From positions 39,990,001 to 40,054,000 of the forward strand of contig NC_073379.1 in the NCBI RefSeq assembly GCF_028641065.1: a DNA stretch of 64,000 nucleotides. Reading direction: 5' to 3'. This document shows positions 11,137-61,911 of the stretch, piece by piece (within the stretch, counting starts at the first letter, position 1; each line of letters opens with the position of its first letter). The position numbers and the translations under genes were made by a program. The notes under the pieces are model-generated. The model was not told the DNA's origin and searched no databases. It saw only the letters and a list, made by a program, of their open reading frames with translations. Source of the stretch: Leucoraja erinacea. Lineage: Eukaryota.

Positions 11137-14100
11137 AAAATAGTAAGATTAAACGAGAACTTACCAGTTTGAAGTTTGATCTGTATTTTATGAGGAGTTA
11201 CGATGAGGGATTACGTGAAGAACCCGTCCCGCACGCATGCGCGGCATACTTCAAAGCAGCGGTGTGGAATCACAGACAGACACAGCAATTGAAATAAATA
11301 TAGTAAAGAAAAGGAGAGCTTAGTTACCAGTTTGATCTCTATTATTGAGGGTGGGAGCGGAGGGCACGTAATCCTTCATCGTAACTCCTCATAAAATACA
11401 GATCAAACTTCAAACTGGTAAGTTCTTGTTTAATCTTACTATAATTACTTCGGAGTCACGTGAGTGACTACGTGAAGATTTTAAAGCTCTGTGATTTCAA
11501 ACCGTGTAACAGTTCATACTTCACTCGCTGCCGAAGTCATTCGAGGTATGTTATCGTAATCAACCATGAATCTGTTTGTAAAACAAAAATGGTGTTATCA
11601 ACAATAACAAGACAAAAATGCTCCCCCGGGCTTAAATTATATATTTGCAGATTCTAATGTTATTTCTGCAACCGATACAGGTTCTGCCAGTGGCTTGTTA
11701 CAAAGTTTGGAACGTATACTCCCTAGACCACCCCACTGTAGCCAGGATTTGGTCCATAGGCACGTCCATCCTCTTAGTCACTGACGTGGAAGCTGCCCTG
11801 GTGGAATAAGATTTATACTCGTTAGTATTTACTCCAGCAACTCCCAGTACCTGCTTGAGCCACTGGAGATAGTTTAGCTTGTCACCCGACCATGAGGTTT
11901 CTTGTGGCTGATCCATAAGGCTTTTTCTTCTCCCTCGAGTATTTTTTATTGTGTCAACGTAGTTCATTAAGTGGGTCATGACACATAACCGTGGTTCAGG
12001 TGGGTATGCCCGGAATTCCATGACTGGACCTGATGTTCCTGGTCTGCTCTGTTTGGCCAGCCCCTGAATGGAAAATGTGACACTATCTGGTGTTATCACC
12101 ATGTTGTCCAATCACAGTAGATGGAAGAACTGGGTCTTTGTGCTGAGGTAAGGCCGTCAGCATATCCATCTTCAGGGTAGGCTGTTCCAGGGTGAGGGAC
12201 CTGGCTGGTGATCATCCCCTAAGGTACGTCAGGATCTCACTGACTTCCCAATTTGGGTGTACCTAGTTGTGGGGAATGGGAATTGAATATACCTCTCCTG
12301 AATTTGATCACCAGTGGGTGGTACCCTTGCCCTGTTGTCGTGGTGCCTGAGTTGAGTAGGCTGACAGAGTACTTCTGGCTATATTGATGGCGCAGTAGCT
12401 GAGTCCTTCATTGTGGTGAAGGATTCAGCTACTGCGCCATCAATATAGCCAGGTTAATATATAGACATGCCATGACGAATGTTCCTTAAGTGTCAGGGCT
12501 GGTTTGAAATTCTGGAATAGCTTCTGGAATAGCTTCGGCTCATATAAGCCAATTCAATAATAAGTCAACTCAAATCATGTCAAGTCAAGTTTATTTGTCA
12601 CATACACATGCGAGATGTGCAGTGAATAAAAAGTGGCAATGCTCGCCATGGTTGCCCCATCCAGGTAAATTGTGGTATATCCGAAATCTTATACATAGAA
12701 ACATAGAAACATAGAAATTAGGGGCAGGAGTAGGCCATTCGGCCCTTCGAGCCTGCACTGCCATTCAATATGATCATGGCTGATCATCCAACTCCAGTAT
12801 CCCGTACCTGCCTTCTCTCCATACCCCCTGATCCCCTTAGCCACAAGGGCCACATCTAACTCCCTCTTAAATATAGCCAATGAACTGGCATCAACTACCC
12901 TCTGTGGCAGAGAGTTCCAGAGATTCACCACTCTCTGTGTGAAAAAAGTTCTTCTCATCTCGGTTTTAAAGGATTACCCCTTTATCCTTAAGCTGTGACC
13001 CCTTGTCCAGGACTTCCCTAACATCGGGAACAATCTTCCTGCATCTAGCCTGTCCAACCCCTTAAGAATTTTGTAAGTTTCTATAAGATCCCCCCTCAAT
13101 CTCCTAAATTCTAGAGAGTATAAACCAAGTCATCCAGTCTTTCTTCATAAGACAGTCCTGACATCCCAGGAATCAGTCTGGTGAACCGTCTCTGCACTCC
13201 CTCTATGGCAATAATGTCCTTCCTCAGATTTGGAGACCAAAACTGTACGCAATACTCCAGGTGTGGTCTCACCAAGACCCTGTACAACTGCAGTAGAACC
13301 TCTCTGCTCCTATACTCAAATCCTTTTACAAAAGGGTACTGAATAGAATGCATCTTTAAAGTCGATGTCTACCATAAAGTATCCTTGGAATCCATGGTAG
13401 TAGTTACAAATTTCATAAGTGGGTATACCTGGTGAAATATTCAAGTGGTTAATCAATGATGGTGCGACGTTCACCATCTTGGGGTTTTTTTGGTACCAAA
13501 GGCTCATATGAGATTTCTTATAACCCCTGGTATATCTTTCCCAGTAGCTTCTTCTTCTTTCGTGTGGCGTGCACAGCCTAAAGTTGTTGGACATCGAGTT
13601 GATTGCATTAGTCGAAACAGGGCGGACCACGTGAAGGTTGCAACCCCCCCCCCCCTCCCCCCCTCTGTTAGTACAAAACCTTTATGTGATTGTAGGAACC
13701 ATACTTATCTGTCTTCACTGTTGTTTGGTGGTGTGTTCATTTCTTCGGTTTCTGGTTCCTTGTCTGTAGGGATGGTGTGTTGGGGGGTGGCGCATTTTCC
13801 ATGCGGCCCGCTCTGGGCCCTGGCCTAAAAGGCTTATGGGATTGGCATGCAGGCCCTGAGCTTTCACCAGTACCATGACGTAGACGCCCCTGGTGGATGC
13901 GTAGAGGTACTGCTGTGTGGTTTAGTGTGGTGCTCATTCCAGACCCTGCCCTCTTGAGCCGAATATTTTGGACACTTCGTCCAGTTTTTTAGGCTTGGTT
14001 TGGTAACTTGCCAGATAGCAGGATCTGTGGTTGTGAGGTCGGCGTTCTCACAGTCCTGTGAATTTTATAGGTTGAGGGCAGGTTTGTGACATCCCTTGAG

Positions 14101-14801
14101 AAGTTGCGGAGCATACTGTGAACAGTAGGGTCAGGTGTTTTGCCATACTACCCTGCCCTTCTGGAATGAGCATGCAAACATGATAGCTGACGTCAGGGTA
14201 TCAAATGCAATTTTAAGATATTTGGGTTTTAAAATGCCCTGCTCAATGTATCCCCCAATAATGGTGGGCACTTCGAGTAAATGCAATTTAGGGGAGGCGT
14301 GATGAATCCAATGCCTCATGGCTACCTGCCTTGGAGAGGTTTTTTGGAAAAACAGGTAGTAGGCTGGCCGTCAGTGATACTGAAAGGCCATCTTGCTCGT
14401 GGTGAAGTCACGTAGCGGCCACACCCAGCAGCTCTTCCTGATCCTGTACCTCAAGCATACTCCCGATGTTGTTCAGCCAGTGACCCCTCTTCTTGACCAG
14501 CCCAGCTCTGGTCGCCATCAATCCCTCGACAAGGGAGATGACCAGTGCTGTATCACTGGAGCGGGAGTGTTATGCTCGAACGGGGGCCGCTTCCCTCTGC
14601 TGCTTTGCTCCCCCTGGAGCAACAAACGAGAGCAAAGTTGCGATTTTAAACTGAAGGTAATTACTTACCTAACGGCCTTCAGGCTTGTAGCAGGAGCGCC
14701 TGTACTCCCGCTCTTCGCTGTTGCACTGCGTGAATGCAATGTCACGCATGCGTGCTGGACGGGTTCTTCACGTAGTCACTCACGTGACTCCGAAGTAAAA
14801 T
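11137..14801 (-). mobile_element. DIRS1-type tyrosine-recombinase retrotransposon (copy 2) with ITRs and ICR; internally deleted and frameshifted
   Basis: YR remnant 11698-12111 (KQSRPG, LCVMTHL, YKSYSTRAASTS, ILATVGWS..TF); RT remnant IDFKDAFYSVP (~13335-13370); 11140-11217 inverted to 11365-11442; 11445-11478 inverted to 14765-14798; 11212-11247 inverted to 14739-14774. Confidence 0.92.
12693..13328 (-). mobile_element. CR1 family A, 5'-truncated, inserted into the DIRS RT
   Basis: ORFs 12689-12958 and 13111-13353 (VRPHLEYCVQFWSP); (CATAGAAA)n tail; DIRS RT continues on both sides (FYSVP / FTWMGQ). Confidence 0.92.
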
Positions 14802-15009
14802 TAATTAATTTATGTAGCACACTTAGCATGATAAATAGGAGCAGGACTGGGCCATTCAGTCTTTTCTACCATTCTGCTACTCAACAAGATCATGGCTGAT
14901 CTGGTACCTCAACGCTATTTTCTATCAATTTCTGGTTCGTATGCACTCTATGGCTGAACCACTGCACTAAAAAAATGTTGTTCTCCTCCTTTCAGTCCTC
15001 AATTCTGTG

Positions 15010-15465
15010 AGACATGAAGCAAAATACACCAGATGCTGGAATCTTGAGTGAAAAAAATAAACTGCAGGGGGATCGTAGCGGGTCAGGCAGCATTTGTAGA
15101 GGGAATGGGCAGATAATATTTTGAATCAGGATCCTTCTGCAGACTAAAAATGACAGTGCTGGAGAAACTCAACGGGTCAAGCAGTATCTCCGGAGAAGAT
15201 GGATAGGTGATATTTCTGGTTGTGACTCTTCTTCAGACTCATACTGAAGAAGGGACGTGGCCTGAAACGTTGCCTATCCACGTTCCCCAGAGAAGCTGCC
15301 TGACTGTGAGTTACTCCAGCACTTTGCATCTTGTTTTTGTAAATGAGCATTTGTATTTCCTCATGTCTCCCTTCTTCAGGCTGACACAAAACTTAGTTTG
15401 TCCATTTCCTTCCACAGGTGCTGCCTGACCTGCTGAGTTCCTCCAGTAGCTTGTTTTTTACTCAG
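15010..15465. mobile_element. Nested palindromic mini-elements built from Penelope terminal sequence
   Basis: Inner inverted pair GTGCTGGAGAAACTCA (~15156) / TGAGTTACTCCAGCAC (~15321); outer pair GGGTCAGGCAGCA (~15080) / TGCTGCCTGACC (~15420); the same sequence ends the Penelope copies at 53640 and 55641. Confidence 0.75.
15244..15271 (+). ncRNA. Minimal hammerhead-ribozyme-like core (Penelope pLTR type)
   Basis: CTGAAGA-AGG(gacgtgg)CCT-GAAACGTT: CUGANGA and GAAA boxes, short stem II, palindromic ACGU helix III; stem I weak. Confidence 0.5.
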
Positions 15466-15654
15466 TTCTGAGTCTTTGATCCTGACGCTGAATTCTTCAA
15501 CACTGGTAACTTCTCAGAATTGAGTATGCTTCAGTGAGGTCACCTCTCATTCTTGTAAAGTTTGAAGCAAACAAAGAAACAAAATTCTTTCCAATAGGTG
15601 ACTCCTTTGTACAAATGGTGCTTCTAGAGTGGTTTATTGATTATTGAAAATTCT

Positions 15655-17349: not shown

Positions 17350-17590
17350 ATAGACAGAAAGTGCTGGAGTAACTAAACGGGTCAGGTAGCATCTCTGGAG
17401 AGAAAGATTGGGTGATGTTTCGAGTCGGCTCCCTTTATCAGACTGGAGAGAGGAGGAAAACTTCTCCAAAGTAGGCATACCTTGAGGAGATTTCATAGTG
17501 GAGCAGAGAAAATGTGTAGAAAGGAACTGCAGATGCTGGAATATACTGAAGATAGACACAAAGTGCTGGAGTAGCTCAGCGGGTCAGGGA
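17350..17590 (-). mobile_element. Tandem Penelope terminal fragments
   Basis: Direct repeat GAAGATAGACA.AAAGTGCTGGAGTA..T.A.CGGGTCAGG at ~17346 and ~17549; decayed hammerhead-like core at 17411-17443. Confidence 0.65.
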
Positions 17591-51290: not shown

Positions 51291-52320
51291 AGGATTACCT
51301 ACTAGTGTTACCATTGGAGATTACAGTGCACAAACTGACTCCCAATGTTGTAAAGGAGAACTGTGACCACATTTCAACAGAGATCTATTCATTGGTTGTG
51401 AAGCACCACCTTGAGATTTTGAAAGACATCACATAAATGCGCATAAGTTTTGTGATGGCAATGTAAATTTGAATCGTCGCTGAGTTGAGGAATGCACTGG
51501 GAGCAGGACATTTTTCACAGCAGCTGTTTCATCTCTTGTGCATATTTAAAACATTACTCATTAAATATTAGAACAGATCAAATCTACAATACAGCTCATC
51601 CACATCAATGAAACAATCAATGATGTAATGAAATGCTTCCGGGAGATAATTATCTTAAAGATAAACTGCATCAGGATTCTGTGCTTAATTTCATGCAATT
51701 CTGTGTACCCATCACTCTCCTGGTCCAGTGAGCCACTTTGCGCCCAGCGGGCAAACCTTCTGCTTTAAAATTCTTACCCTTGTATCAAATACCTCCTTCT
51801 TCAGAACTGCAACCTCATCCCCCCACCCGCCTCCTACCACATCAGCCTAACAACCACTGACACCTATCTGTAAAGTTCCCTAACCCTCTTATCCTCTAAA
51901 ATATCTGCACTCTTCTACTCCTACTCTGATTTGAATCTCATCCCCACTGGCCCCTATAAGTTTTGCTGTCAAAACACTGGAGCTTCCTCAATTGTCTGCT
52001 TCGCTTTCCTCCTGTAAAATGTTCCACAAATCCCACCTTTGCCCAAGCTTTTGGGCACCTGACTTCAGAATGTGTTTTTGATTGTTCCTTGGGATTCCTT
52101 GTTATGTTAAAGATTCCTTATAAATCCAATTTATTGTTAGTTCAGAAATTGTCACATTGCAATGGTGAGTTCACTTCAAAAATATACTTTATTGGCGCTT
52201 TGTGATAGCAAGTGGCGCCGTGTAAATGTGACCTTAATACCTTCATTTATCTTCATCCTAGGATATCTTCCAGTGCTTCCTTGCTCCAGGTTTCCTTATG
52301 TAGGGAACCATGGAATGTAA

Positions 52321-52668
52321 TGGGCTTGTCCCACTTACGTGACTTTTTCGGCGACTGCCGTCACCCGTCATAGGTCGTTGCAGGTCACCGAAAATTTTCA
52401 ACATGTTGAAAATCCAGCGGCGACCAGAACAAGGTACGACTCTTTGGGCGACTACTCACGATCATATAGGCTTCACCCAGCGACATGTCGCCAGGGTGTT
52501 GCCTGTGTGGTCATGAGTAGTCTCCTCAGTCGCCCAAAGAGTCGTAGTGTCTTTCTGGTTGCCGCTGGATTTTCAACATTGAAAACGTTGACAATTTTCG
52601 GCGACCTGCAACGACCTATGACGGGTGCCGGCAGTCGCCTAAAAGGCCGTGTAAGCGAGACAGGCCCA
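52321..52668. mobile_element. PIF/Harbinger-like palindromic MITE
   Basis: TIRs TGGGCTTGTCCCACTTAC / GTAAGCGAGACAGGCCCA; whole element self-complementary; flanks TAA / TCA. Confidence 0.85.
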
Positions 52669-53067
52669 TCAGCCACAAATATCAGTTCTTGAAAACCTGC
52701 AAAAGCCCAGTGGTCATCTCTCTCCTATCTTCTGGATAAACCATGCTTCTTCTCCAAGCTGTGCTGCTACTCCATCATTGTTGGTCCTTTGCACCCTACC
52801 TCATCTCTGCTATTTAGTGTCGCTTGTTGTGAAACCAGTCTGATAAATATTTACACTTTTTTTAAAATCCAGCTTCATCTTCTAGCGGTAGATGGGGTGT
52901 TATCAGTTTAGTTTTTAATTCATTCCATGGCAGTGACAAACTCAAACATTTGTTGTTCATCTGCTGTTGATTAGCCTTGGGAAAGTGGTGAGAAGCTGCC
53001 ATGTAGAAACACTTGCATTGGAGAAAGCCTAGTGATTTGATGCAATCTAATGGCTCCCTGGGGCTAT

Positions 53068-55640: not shown

Positions 55641-56580
55641 ATGTAGACAAAAATGCTGGGGAAACTCAGCGGGTGAGGCAGCATCTATGGAGCAATGGAA
55701 TAGGTGACATTTCGGGTCAAGACCTTCTTCAGACTGATGTGGGGGGGGGGGGGGGGGGCAGGAAGAAGAAAGGAAGAGGTGGAGACAGTGGGATGTTGGA
55801 GAGCTGGGAAAGGGGAGGGGAAGGAGGGAGAAAGCAAGGACTACCTGAAATTGGAGAAGTCAATGTTCATACCGCTGGGGTGTAAACTACCCAAGCGAAA
55901 TATGAGGTGCTGCTCCTCCAATTTACGGTGGGACTCACTCTGGCCATGGAGGTGGCCCAGGACAGAAAGGTCGGATTCGGAATGGGAGGGGGAGTTGAAG
56001 TGCTGAGCCACCAGCAGATCAGGTTGGTTATCGCGAACTGAGCGGAGATGTTGGGTGAAGCGATTACCTAGTCTCCGCTTGGTCTCACCGATGTAGAACA
56101 GCTGACACCTAGAGCAGCGGATGCAATAGATGAGGTTGGAGGAGGTGCAGGTGAACCACTGCCATGCCTGGAAAGACTGCTTAGGTCCTTGGATAGAATC
56201 AAGGGGGGAGGTGAAGCAACAAGTGTAGCATTTCCTGCGGTTGCAAGGGAAAGTACCAGGGGAGGGGATGGTTAGAGTGGGAAGGGACGAATGGACCAGG
56301 GAGTTACGGAGGGAGCAGTCTCTGTGCGGATATAAGGAGGAGATGGGAAGATGTGGCCAGTGGTGCGATCCCGTTGGAGGTGGCGAAAATGTTGGAGGAT
56401 TATCTATTGTATGTGACGGCTGGTAGGGTGGAAGGTGAGGACAAGGGGGACTCTGCCCTTGTTACGAGTGGGGGGGGGAGAGCAGAGTTACGTGATATAG
56501 AAGAGACCCTGGTGAGAACCTCATCTATAGTTGAAGAGGGGAATCCCCGTTCCCTAAAGAATGAGGACATCTCCGATGCC
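55641..56580 (-). mobile_element. Penelope-like element 3' part, younger copy
   Basis: SEMSSFFRERGFPS; antisense CTSSNLIYCIRCSRCQLFYIGETKRRL..LEEQHLIFRLG; terminal repeat with hammerhead-like core. Confidence 0.9.
55703..55734 (-). ncRNA. Minimal hammerhead-ribozyme-like core in Penelope terminal repeat
   Basis: Minus strand GT-CTGAAGA-AGGTCTTGACCC-GAAATGTC-ACC: both catalytic boxes, stem II, GUC triplet. Confidence 0.55.
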
Positions 56581-59140: not shown

Positions 59141-59719
59141 TCACCACTCTCCTGGTGACTAACTATTGACTATCCTGCAGAAGCACGACCACAGATAGCC
59201 AAAGAGGCTCACTGCCCTCGTTGCCCCTGCATTTCCCCAAGGGGCTCAGACAATCCTGGCCACAAATTGCTTTCACTCTGCAAACCTTTGACATTTGTCC
59301 TATCGATTTGAGTTGCTCTTTCAGAAGGTTTTTGATCTAATGCCATTTAACAGTCCCCTACTATTCAATTTTCTCCTCTTTACTGAACTTTCATTCACAT
59401 CTCCACGTCAGTACTTCCCAATATTTTATGAATGAAATTCCCAGTTCTTCACACGCAATGCAGTACAACTCCCCTGACCTGGCACCACAAGCGCCCCTAT
59501 GATGCAATCTCCAGTTCCTTTAAAGGTTTTGGGACTGCCCTGAGGATTTATTTATAGAGGGTAGTAGCAAGTTTACAAGTGGGGCACCTGCAAGGAACCC
59601 ATTGAGTCCATTGACCCCATGAGTTTCATTTCCTTACTTGTTTCCTATAACCTATTCTCCCTCACATGCCCATCCAGTCTTCTGTCATAACACTACTCAT
59701 GAAGACCATGTAAACCCTG

Positions 59720-60650
59720 GGTAGACACAAAATGTTGGAGTCACTCAGTGGGACAGGCAACATCTCTGGAGAGAAGGAATGGGTGACATTTCGGGTCGAG
59801 ACCCTTCTTTAGACATCTGCAGTTCATTCTTACACATTTTGTACCTTCTCACCAGAGAGGCTATCTTGCCCGCTGCTGAAAGACTCATCCATGCCTTCAT
59901 CTCCTCCCGACTGGACTATTGCAACTCACTTCTCCTTGGCATCAGCTCCATGTACATCAACCAACTCCAATTGGTCCAGAACGCAGCCGCCCGACTCATC
60001 ACCCACACCAAATCCTGGCCTCACATCACTCCAGTCCTCAAACAACTTCACTGGCTTCCCATCTCCCACCGGATCACCTACAAAATCCTGATCCTCACCT
60101 ACAAAGCCCTCCACCATCTGTCCCCCCCATATCTCACTGACCTCCTCTCCCCCTACCAACCCTCAAGGTCCCTCAGATCCACATCAGCCGGTCTCCTCTC
60201 CATCCACAAGTCCAACCTCCACAGTTTTGGGGACAGAGCCTTCTCCAGGGCAGCTCCCAGGCTCTGGAACTCCCTCCCCCAACTGATCCGCAATTCCGTG
60301 TCCCTCACCATCTTCCAGTCCCGCCTCAAGACCCATCTTCACCTCTGCCTATCCTTAGCCCCACGTGCCGTCCCTTTTCATCTGTGCATTAATTGCCTCA
60401 TACTGTGTTTTGTATTGAATTCTGTATTTACTTTGTGTACTAGTCATGTCTCTACTATTTATTGCATTCCCCTTACATGTTTTTCCTCTACCTGCTAAAT
60501 TTTTGTAAGGTGTCCTTGAGACTCTTGAAAGGCGCCCATAAATAAAATTTATTATTATTATTATTAGAGAGGCTGCCTGACCCGCTGAGTTACTCCAGCA
60601 TATTGTGTCTACCTTCAAATTAAACCAGCATCTGCAGTTCTTTCCTACCC
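59720..60650. mobile_element. Palindromic Penelope-derived mini-element split by L2
   Basis: GTAGACACAAAATGTTGGAGTCACTCAG (59720) inverted to CTGAGTTACTCCAGCATATTGTGTCTAC (~60585-60612). Confidence 0.75.
59863..60565 (+). mobile_element. L2 LINE 3' fragment with 9-bp TSD
   Basis: LIHAFISSRLDYCNSLL..LQLVQNAAARL..LHWLP..GDRAFSRAAPRLWNSLP; (ATT)n tail; AGAGAGGCT at 59854-59862 and 60566-60574. Confidence 0.93.
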
Positions 60651-61911
60651 ATGTAAACCCTGGATCAGAGTCCAATGTAGGTTACGGGAGCTGGTGTCAA
60701 ATATAATCGTATTCACTGTTAACTTATGTTTCACTTTAATATTATTAACCCCCACAACACCCCCTGTAGTCCTTGGTGTTTACCTGAGGGATCACTGAGC
60801 CCAGTTCCTGAGGAACATCTAGTCCTGTCATCCAATGTGGCCAATGTTGGTGCTGGCAATGTTACTTATACCTGTAAAAAAAACGACACAGAGTGCCGGA
60901 ATAACTCAGTGGATCAGGCAGCATCATGAAGGACATGGATAGGCGACACTTCGGATTGGGACCAGACTCGCACTTGTGGTTTCCTGAAGCCCAACTAAAC
61001 ATTTTAAAACCCAGCAGATGAGAAAATAGTGCACCTCTCTGTAGAAATTAAGGAAACAAACAGATGAGGTGTTTGAACATAACTGGCTGTGGAGGGAACT
61101 CTGAGGCTGTGGCAACAATGAGTCAGTACAGGAACATGGGGCCAAGTGGTCTCCTGATCTATGAATATTGATCAGCCTCTATAGCTAAGTTGAGCCCTAA
61201 GGGATTTTTCTAGATTTTTTTTTTCCTTTTCCATCTCTATGCATTAGAAATGAAAAAAAAATCACATTTCGAGATGGTAAAATGCCAATTGTTTATTTGG
61301 TTTATCTATAAAGCAGAATTCTGCAACACATTGAACACTGTATAGCCCTTTGCATCCGAGCTAGCTTTTTCAAAGCTTGATCCATTTAGTCTATCTTCCT
61401 CTGTTCTCTCCTTACAGCCCTCCACTTCCCCACCCTTCAAGTATAAATTTAATTTCCTTTTAAAAATCGAATCCGTCTTTTCAGGCAGCATTTTTTTTAG
61501 ATCAAAACAAATCGCTGTGCAAAAACATTTCTCATCATTTCCCTTCCCACCCCACCCCACCCCCTCCACCCTTCAAAGCTTGCCAATTATTTTAAGTCAC
61601 CAATATTTTGTTACATTTAATATATTTTCCTCCATACATAATTAACATTTCAAGCTGATAGTTTTAAAGGTGTTGTTTTAAGCAAATAAAACATAGAAGA
61701 AACATTCCCTGCTATCCACTATTGTTGGCTCTTAAAGGAAGAAAACCTTAAGAATAATGTGATTCTGTTAAAATCCTAAAATTGCTTTCCTTCTGAATAT
61801 TTTCTGGCCGCAAATACAGCAGACTCTTGGTCTTCTGAATCAGGTTTTGAGTTCAAATCAAGTACATGGCTAAGAAAGGTTTAGAGGGATATGGGTGAAA
61901 CACTTACAAAA

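What the first reader, a model, noticed from the sequence alone, without database searches (positions are those of the whole stretch)
15010..15465. Palindromic Penelope-derived mini-elements with back-to-back hammerhead cores on both strands
Seen: a ~170-bp palindrome (15156-15322) centred on TCTTCAGACTCATACTGAAGA gives a CTGAAGA...GAAA motif on each strand (+ CTGAAGA-AGG..CCT-GAAACGTT at 15244-15271; - CTGAAGA-AGAGTCACAACCA-GAAATATC at ~15208-15237). It is nested in an older palindrome of the same family, and a similar inverted unit lies at 59720-60650. Established: Penelope-like pseudo-LTRs carry minimal type-I hammerheads thought to cleave as dimers, and non-autonomous retrozymes exist. Inference: an ORF-less, MITE-like, two-strand ribozyme element family mobilised by Penelope machinery, with one core in the sense of TRPM3.
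Basis: partly seen in the sequence, partly recalled or inferred. Interest (0 to 1): 0.7.

Follow-up and report, generated by a model that had tools for sequence, protein, structure and literature searches.

The report
Head-to-head Penelope retroelement stumps
This mirror-image DNA is real, but it is one old, decayed insertion of two back-to-back copies of the short ribozyme-bearing end of a very common jumping gene (a Penelope-like element), likely joined as it landed; the layout is already known, and it is not a self-spreading two-strand ribozyme family.

Summary
The palindrome, both CUGAAGA...GAAA motifs and the nesting are real. Each arm is the 100-135-nt hammerhead-plus-tail terminus (pLTR) of an abundant GIY-YIG/RT Penelope-like element. 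In 126 unselected 10-kb stretches (1.26 Mb) I found 542 arms and 82 head-to-head pairs (about 140,000 genome-wide, extrapolated). They carry the known Penelope signature: tail on one arm only (40 of 50 classifiable pairs) and target-site duplications (24 of 81; shuffled 0.5%); an ORF-bearing 2.6-kb copy has the same layout. Against a self-propagating two-strand ribozyme element: 81 junction types among 85 pairs, both arms reach the core in 18 of 82, both ribozymes look intact in 2 of 82, catalytic G12 decays like any CpG, and the hairpin is predicted to bury the cores. Both cores here have damaged helix II. The unit at 59720 has one mutated core. What survives: ends are not random. 196 of 293 core-bearing copies begin within a few bases of the ribozyme's first base, not at its cleavage site, suggesting run-off copying from an RNA starting there. 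This scan reported the same thing in other shark and skate genomes.

The parts
15146..15369 (.). Inner head-to-head insertion (subfamily 1): tailless arm on -, tailed arm on +
   Evidence: alignment to in-script subfamily consensus, 86% and 82% identity; flanked by duplication
15146..15242 (-). Left arm, no tail; minimal hammerhead remnant from 15236 (CTGAAGA) to about 15209; helix II keeps 2 of 4 pairs
15244..15369 (+). Right arm with ~35-nt tail; core CTGAAGA 15244-15250, helix II 15252-15263 (G.U at 10.1-11.1, one mismatch), GAAACGTT 15264-15271; first helix I pair lost
15133..15145 (+). Left copy of likely target-site duplication of the inner element (11 of 13 match to 15370-15382); lies in the reverse-strand core of the outer element
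   Evidence: D1
15370..15382 (+). Right copy of that duplication
15010..15145 (-). Outer, earlier element (subfamily 2): left arm with tail, core mutated (CTGCAGA)
   Evidence: 80% to consensus over 114 nt; tail end read
15383..15460 (+). Outer element: right arm, no tail, no core
   Evidence: aligns from consensus position 38
14998..15009 (+). Possible duplication of the outer element (10 of 12 match to 15461-15472); weak
59721..60648 (.). Second head-to-head insertion (subfamily 4): tailless left arm with one mutated core, tailed right arm without core; perfect 15-bp duplication 59706-59720 / 60649-60663
59863..60565 (+). Later insertion inside that right arm, 9-bp duplication, (ATT)n tail; looks like an L2/CR1 LINE 3' end (label recalled, not tested)
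55645..56580 (-). 5'-truncated parent element: ORF end with Cys-rich linker and GIY-YIG domain, C-rich tract, then the same hammerhead arm
   Evidence: PF01541, 23.1 bits, cut-off 22.6

Best explanation
The palindrome is a single old insertion of two head-to-head copies of the hammerhead-bearing terminus of a Penelope-like retrotransposon, likely built afresh at landing when the element's enzyme primed reverse transcription from both cut DNA strands on one RNA source. Shown: the arm is both the 3' end and the 5' start of an RT + GIY-YIG element; arms end at two preferred places ~35 nt apart; pairs usually have one of each, share a source and sit between 9-20-bp direct repeats; junctions are individual; cores decay at background rate. 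Inferred: one cut end primes at the far site (tailed arm), the other at the near site (tailless arm); both cDNAs stop at or shortly before the start of the hammerhead, likely because the RNA begins there or a barrier lies there; their ends are then joined. The hammerhead is cargo from the parent and is predicted to be inactive in the palindrome.
For: Parent link: window 55645-56580; the arm continues into an ~800-nt 5' region that aligns on to the RT ORF; 2.6-kb copy L124 shows duplication + short inverted tailless arm + RT/EN body + tailed arm; inverted arms also lie upstream of ORF remnants in L116, L128, L129, L133, L134. Unselected sample, 126 loci: 542 arms; of adjacent pairs within 30 nt, 82 head-to-head vs 6 tail-to-tail and 12 tandem; 12 vs 1 vs 0 in 20 further loci. 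Tail: 40 tail/no-tail, 5 tail/tail, 5 none/none, 32 unclassifiable; 8, 1, 2 and 1 unclassifiable in the replicate. Same subfamily on both arms 56 of 59, expected 0.32; shared non-CpG variants 0.32 vs 0.11 (max 0.16) in 300 within-subfamily shuffles, 75 pairs. Duplications scoring >=9: 24 of 81 pairs vs 0.005 shuffled; 24 of 124 solo arms vs 0.007. Junction types 81 of 85 distinct. G12 changed in 22 of 84 palindrome arms vs 66 of 251 at neighbouring CpG positions; CUGANGA 12 of 144 vs control 54 of 837. Literature: head-to-head inverted pLTR, one-sided tail, 8-10-bp TSD (PMC3846280, PMC8557442); a purified PLE protein cuts and extends both strands, starts at two sites that define the tail, and does not need hammerhead cleavage (PMC11167929).
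Against: Twin priming is inferred from end products only. Shared variants between arms fit a fold-back or later gene conversion equally well. Only about 30% of pairs show a scorable duplication (age may hide the rest). One junction type recurs 5 times in 85 (centre on the short self-complementary TCAGTCTGA), which could be a hot spot or a small family of re-copied palindromes. Microhomology at junctions was not enriched overall (11 of 85 with >=2 nt vs 0.137 simulated), so how the two ends join is unexplained. The in vitro paper used a Poseidon-clade protein, not this one. No self-cleavage assay could be run.
Confidence: 0.8

Rival explanations
1. One reading: an ORF-less, MITE-like element whose palindromic unit is transcribed, cleaved by hammerheads on both strands and re-inserted by Penelope proteins.
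For: About 65 pairs per Mb; inner ends cluster at the core start; duplications flank the whole palindrome; one junction type seen 5 times in 85; arm sequences are abundant in RNA runs on both strands (reads from many copies).
Against: Junctions individual (81 of 85); both arms reach the core in 18 of 82 and 2 of 12; both intact in 2 of 82; cores decay at background rate; each strand has one core, predicted unpaired probability <=0.01 in the hairpin; no excess of 5' ends at the cleavage site (1 of 378 non-palindromic arms starts at position 35, 6 at 36, none of them with a scoring duplication); no RNA begin/end pile-up there (table 6).
Confidence: 0.05
2. Fold-back: one cDNA snaps back on itself at a short self-complementary spot in the ribozyme region and is extended on itself (self-priming, proposed in an antisense form in PMC3846280).
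For: Arms share subfamily and private variants; the recurring junction sits on a 9-nt self-complementary sequence and two others on helix II.
Against: Inner ends are often very unequal (2/27, 53/17, 103/5) without enriched microhomology; the tailless end of palindromes falls at the same place where solo arms end (all arms: 223 tailed, 214 tailless), as expected of an independent priming site.
Confidence: 0.12
3. Chance or later rearrangement: two independent insertions side by side, or inversion after insertion.
For: Arms are dense (430 per Mb) and do insert into each other, as in this window.
Against: 82 head-to-head vs 6 tail-to-tail; same subfamily 56 of 59; one duplication around the pair.
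Confidence: 0.03

Closest known systems
EN+ Penelope-like insertions with inverted pLTR, tail and TSD (Pen2a_Av etc., PMC3846280; general scheme PMC8557442 Fig. 2)
   Same: Head-to-head inverted terminus, 30-40-nt tail on one side, short TSD, palindromic junction, 5' truncation, partial tandems.
   Different: Here the commonest products have no body between the arms (about 200-240 bp in all) and number about 1e5; duplications run 9-20 bp rather than 8-10.
Minimal type I hammerheads of metazoan PLEs (PMC4209133)
   Same: CUGANGA, extra base before helix II, G-C first pair, palindromic 15.2-16.2, no helix III; that paper already notes pairs of motifs on opposite strands 100-700 bp apart and many solo motifs from truncated PLEs.
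   Different: Helix II is 4 bp here; the motifs abut; the copies in this window are damaged.
Non-LTR retrozymes (bioRxiv 10.64898/2026.07.22.740005; PMC7229834 seen as listing only)
   Same: Non-coding, pLTR-derived, hammerhead-bearing, dependent on PLE proteins.
   Different: Retrozymes are head-to-tail tandems with two or more same-sense ribozymes; these units are head-to-head with one core per strand.
Poseidon element of Anolis in vitro (PMC11167929)
   Same: Two reverse-transcription start sites that define the tail; both strands extended; ribozyme near the start of the template.
   Different: Other clade; the paper sections I read do not describe head-to-head products or 5' end clustering at the ribozyme start.

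Membership tests
EN+ Penelope-like element insertion | Parent ORF with RT and C-terminal GIY-YIG | tested here: met
   GIY-YIG over cut-off in the window copy; RVT_1 E=1.4e-4 (under cut-off) in L124 and GIY-YIG just under cut-off in L125, L127
EN+ Penelope-like element insertion | Same terminus at 5' and 3' end (pLTR), partial tandems | tested here: met
   arm precedes the 5' region and follows the ORF; tandem form in L206/L207/L210
EN+ Penelope-like element insertion | Inverted 5' copy and 30-40-nt tail on one side | tested here: met
   40 of 50 classifiable pairs; window copy
EN+ Penelope-like element insertion | Short target-site duplication | tested here: met
   24 of 81 vs 0.005; window 11/13 and 15/15
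Neptune clade | Cys-rich Zn-finger-like linker before EN; RT phylogeny | tested here: inconclusive
   Cys-rich linker seen (feature from PMC8557442); no tree built
Minimal type I hammerhead (subfamily consensus) | Core boxes, 4-bp helix II, G10.1-C11.1, UH triplet | tested here: met
   core invariant in all four subfamily consensuses, helix II kept through wobble changes (read by eye)
Minimal type I hammerhead (the two window copies) | Intact helix II and first helix I pair | tested here: not met
   + copy 3 of 4 pairs with G.U at 10.1-11.1 and A/G at helix I; - copy 2 of 4 pairs
Minimal type I hammerhead | Self-cleavage as dimer | not testable with these tools
   needs in vitro assay
Non-LTR retrozyme | Head-to-tail repeats with >=2 same-sense intact ribozymes | tested here: not met
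   head-to-head layout; both intact in 2 of 82
Non-LTR retrozyme | Circular RNA | not tested
   available runs were not suited; not examined
MITE-like self-propagating unit | Uniform structure shared by many copies | tested here: not met
   81 junction types in 85; unequal arms
MITE (DNA transposon) | Identical terminal inverted repeats and fixed-length TSD | tested here: not met
   ends differ by the tail; duplications 9-20 bp

The most novel reading that the evidence does not exclude
The element's RNA starts at the first bases of the hammerhead (an initiator-like TCAGTCT), so priming in the 5' copy of the tail gives strong-stop-like run-off cDNAs of 100 or 135 nt; priming from both cut strands joins two of them head to head. 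This would explain the inverted pLTR and one-sided tail of all endonuclease-bearing Penelope elements, with about 1e5 natural reaction products in one genome as the test set.
Probability: 0.45. Interest if true: 0.55.

Novelty: new member of a known kind. Interest (0 to 1): 0.25.

Why it matters
As a locus it is an ordinary decayed repeat. As a family it matters modestly: how Penelope-like elements make their inverted ends and tail is still open (PMC8557442, PMC11167929), and a genome with about 1e5 minimal products, TSD-defined ends and four age classes gives a direct statistical test of two-strand priming and of where the template RNA begins. It also warns that motif scans will count about 1e5 intact-looking hammerheads here (76 of 542 arms pass my rule) that show no sign of selection.

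Tried and rejected
Rfam scan: no hammerhead model hit. Selection on the core: an apparent excess conservation of the AAA of GAAA in palindrome arms (2 of 252 vs 33 of 688) did not repeat in 20 further loci (2 of 33 vs 3 of 81; small sample), and G12 decayed (22 of 84; 7 of 11), so rejected. Microhomology-driven joining: not enriched. 5' ends at the cleavage site: no peak supported by duplications. Splicing of host exons onto the AG before the core: base frequencies at -2 to -4 fit an exon end, but T follows the element at -5 in 18 of 30 and duplications lie within 0-7 nt of the core in 20 of 32 solos, so not the main route. Copied cap G: G before AGT in 7 of 48, background level. RNA: no RNA holder listed; in two RNA runs read at 5-6% there were no reads on the unique flanks and 99% of arm reads came from other copies, which says nothing firm on expression; no begin/end pile-up near the ribozyme on a tandem copy, but these fragmented libraries cannot show start sites. 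Fold caveat: isolated arms also have low predicted helix II probability (0-0.27), so folding cannot show that a single arm is active. TRPM exons in the window: 9 ORFs scanned against Pfam without a relevant hit; the others were only read by eye (cut, and 61). A planned further 200 kb of replicate sample was not obtained, so the replicate is 20 loci. Repbase and Dfam were not available.

Full report
Observation. The palindrome is there and far beyond chance (z -11.9; whole nested region z -12.8). Contigs from two other organisms cover the centre and flanks with few differences, so it is an old shared insertion, not an assembly error. The host is likely a cartilaginous fish (my recall of the repeat types; no call names it). 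The inner element spans 15146-15369 between 11-of-13 direct repeats. Its left arm lacks and its right arm carries a ~35-nt tail. It sits in the centre of an earlier pair of another subfamily. The unit at 59721-60648 has a perfect 15-bp duplication, one mutated core and a later insertion in its right arm.

Parent. At 55645-56580 the same arm follows an ORF end with a Cys-rich linker and a GIY-YIG domain and a C-rich tract. That protein has 115,197 first-look candidates in the genome, 150 scored. Longer copies carry RT. One 2.6-kb copy reads: duplication, short inverted tailless arm, RT/EN body, tailed arm, duplication. A sequence found downstream of two tails led to 30 loci; in these the arm runs on into a 5' region that aligns to the RT ORF. 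So the arm is the pLTR at both ends. Of 12 distinct loci among those 30 whose arm reaches the core (three near-identical ones counted once), by eye 7 begin at the core after unique flank or an inverted arm, 3 follow the 3' tract as tandems, and 2 follow other internal fragments.

Family census. The 30 best matches to the window palindrome (4,836 candidates, 40 scored) are selected for likeness, so I used them only to seed a profile (27 of 30; three opposite-strand duplicates dropped). Counts come from 126 stretches of 10 kb at round coordinates on the 36 largest contigs (1.26 Mb; not a formal random sample, small contigs not sampled). They hold 542 arms (430 per Mb; about 9e5 extrapolated) in four subfamilies 8-22% from their consensus. 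Adjacent arms within 30 nt: 82 head-to-head, 6 tail-to-tail, 12 tandem; about 1.4e5 pairs extrapolated. Twenty further loci gave 67 arms and 12 pairs. Tail pattern: 40 one-sided, 5 both, 5 neither, 32 unclassifiable. Subfamily agreement 56 of 59 confidently assigned pairs (expected 0.32). Shared private variants 0.32 against 0.11 (75 same-subfamily pairs). Duplications: 24 of 81 (one pair at a locus edge dropped) against 0.005; lengths 9-20 bp.

Is the palindrome the copied unit? Among 85 same-subfamily pairs (of 94) there are 81 junction types; one recurs five times, centred on a 9-nt self-complementary sequence. My junction measure is blurred by mutation, which inflates apparent diversity, but the raw centres are plainly different. 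Both arms reach the core in 18 of 82, one in 32, neither in 32. The same architecture holds with 0 to 2,600 nt of body between the arms. This is what assembly at landing predicts.

Are the ribozymes working? By my rule (11 core bases, 4 of 5 candidate helix II pairs, 15.2-16.2 pair, UH), both are intact in 2 of 82 pairs, and 76 of 542 arms pass. G12 is changed in 22 of 84 palindrome arms, the CpG rate; CUGANGA in 12 of 144 positions against 54 of 837 control. One contrary result, low change in the AAA of GAAA (2 of 252), did not repeat. A transcript of either strand holds one core, predicted paired in the long hairpin (unpaired probability <=0.01); isolated arms also fold poorly into the ribozyme in this model. 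The core is invariant across subfamily consensuses, so it likely mattered to the parent.

What is not ordinary truncation. Of 293 arms (of 542) with the core aligned and 60 nt of upstream sequence, 125 have unique flank and 71 an inverted arm within a few bases of C3; 97 continue into the body. Base composition returns to background by position -7. Duplication-defined 5' ends lie 0-7 nt before C3 in 20 of 32 solos, with 10-27 extra bases in the rest. There is no supported peak at the cleavage site. Either the RNA begins there (the sequence fits an initiator consensus, recalled; Inr-like TCACT is noted in a rotifer pLTR, PMC3846280) or the enzyme stalls at the C-rich tract. The RNA runs could not decide.

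Mechanism. Shown: parentage, two 3' end points, one-sided tail, common source of both arms, duplications, individual junctions, background decay. Inferred: priming from both cut strands at the two start sites, stop at the ribozyme's start, end joining. Confidence 0.8 for assembly at landing by Penelope machinery; twin priming is favoured over fold-back on end positions only.

Literature seen. PMC4209133: parts 1-2 of 4 (results, discussion, part of methods). PMC11167929: parts 1-2 of 4 (main text). bioRxiv 10.64898/2026.07.22.740005: parts 1-3 of 5 (through discussion); its supplements are closed. PMC8557442, PMC3846280, PMC2377424: passages by term search. PMC7229834, PMC6155905: listing only. 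No supplements were read; those of PMC4209133 may list a shark motif. Searches for a description of this family or of twin priming in Penelope found none beyond these; the library lacks most subscription papers, and Repbase/Dfam were not searched, so the family may be catalogued.

Earlier scan notes. My reading was recorded before looking (nothing found by sequence). A word search returned eight notes on other shark and skate genomes with the same conclusion; they are AI notes, not independent support.

Verdict. Real, abundant, a new member of a known kind; the two-strand ribozyme element is not supported. Interest 0.25.

Noticed in passing
L005:1370-1500; L112:2222-2596; reads: Head-to-tail arrays of a ~66-nt piece of the arm (from GAAAC to just before the tailless end), lacking the first half of the core; the joint is common in RNA runs (1,251 reads in X12). 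Could be repeated re-priming at the near start site, telomerase-like, or a minisatellite.
   Followed up: no
L192 and L203: 5'-complete elements whose arm is preceded directly by what looks like an internal RT or EN fragment; template jump or splicing to the AG before the core.
   Followed up: no
window 11140-11442 and 14760-14810: Another inverted-repeat element (78-nt arms, 97% complementary) with a related short sequence near 14760 that is very abundant in other runs; not Penelope-like by eye.
   Followed up: no
window 12374-12453: Near-perfect 80-nt hairpin inside a stretch whose ORFs look like tyrosine-recombinase retroelement remnants (label recalled); weak microRNA model hits below threshold.
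   Followed up: no
window 52320-52669: Inverted-repeat element, 91-nt arms, 85% complementary; MITE-like.
   Followed up: no
subfamily 3 consensus: In the youngest subfamily helix II is closed by a UUCG loop with wobble pairs, position 17 is U and 1.1 is G: coordinated changes that keep the fold, suggesting selection in the parent.
   Followed up: partly
window 17357-17590: An arm followed by the element's 5' region, one of two copies that revealed the 5' structure.
   Followed up: yes
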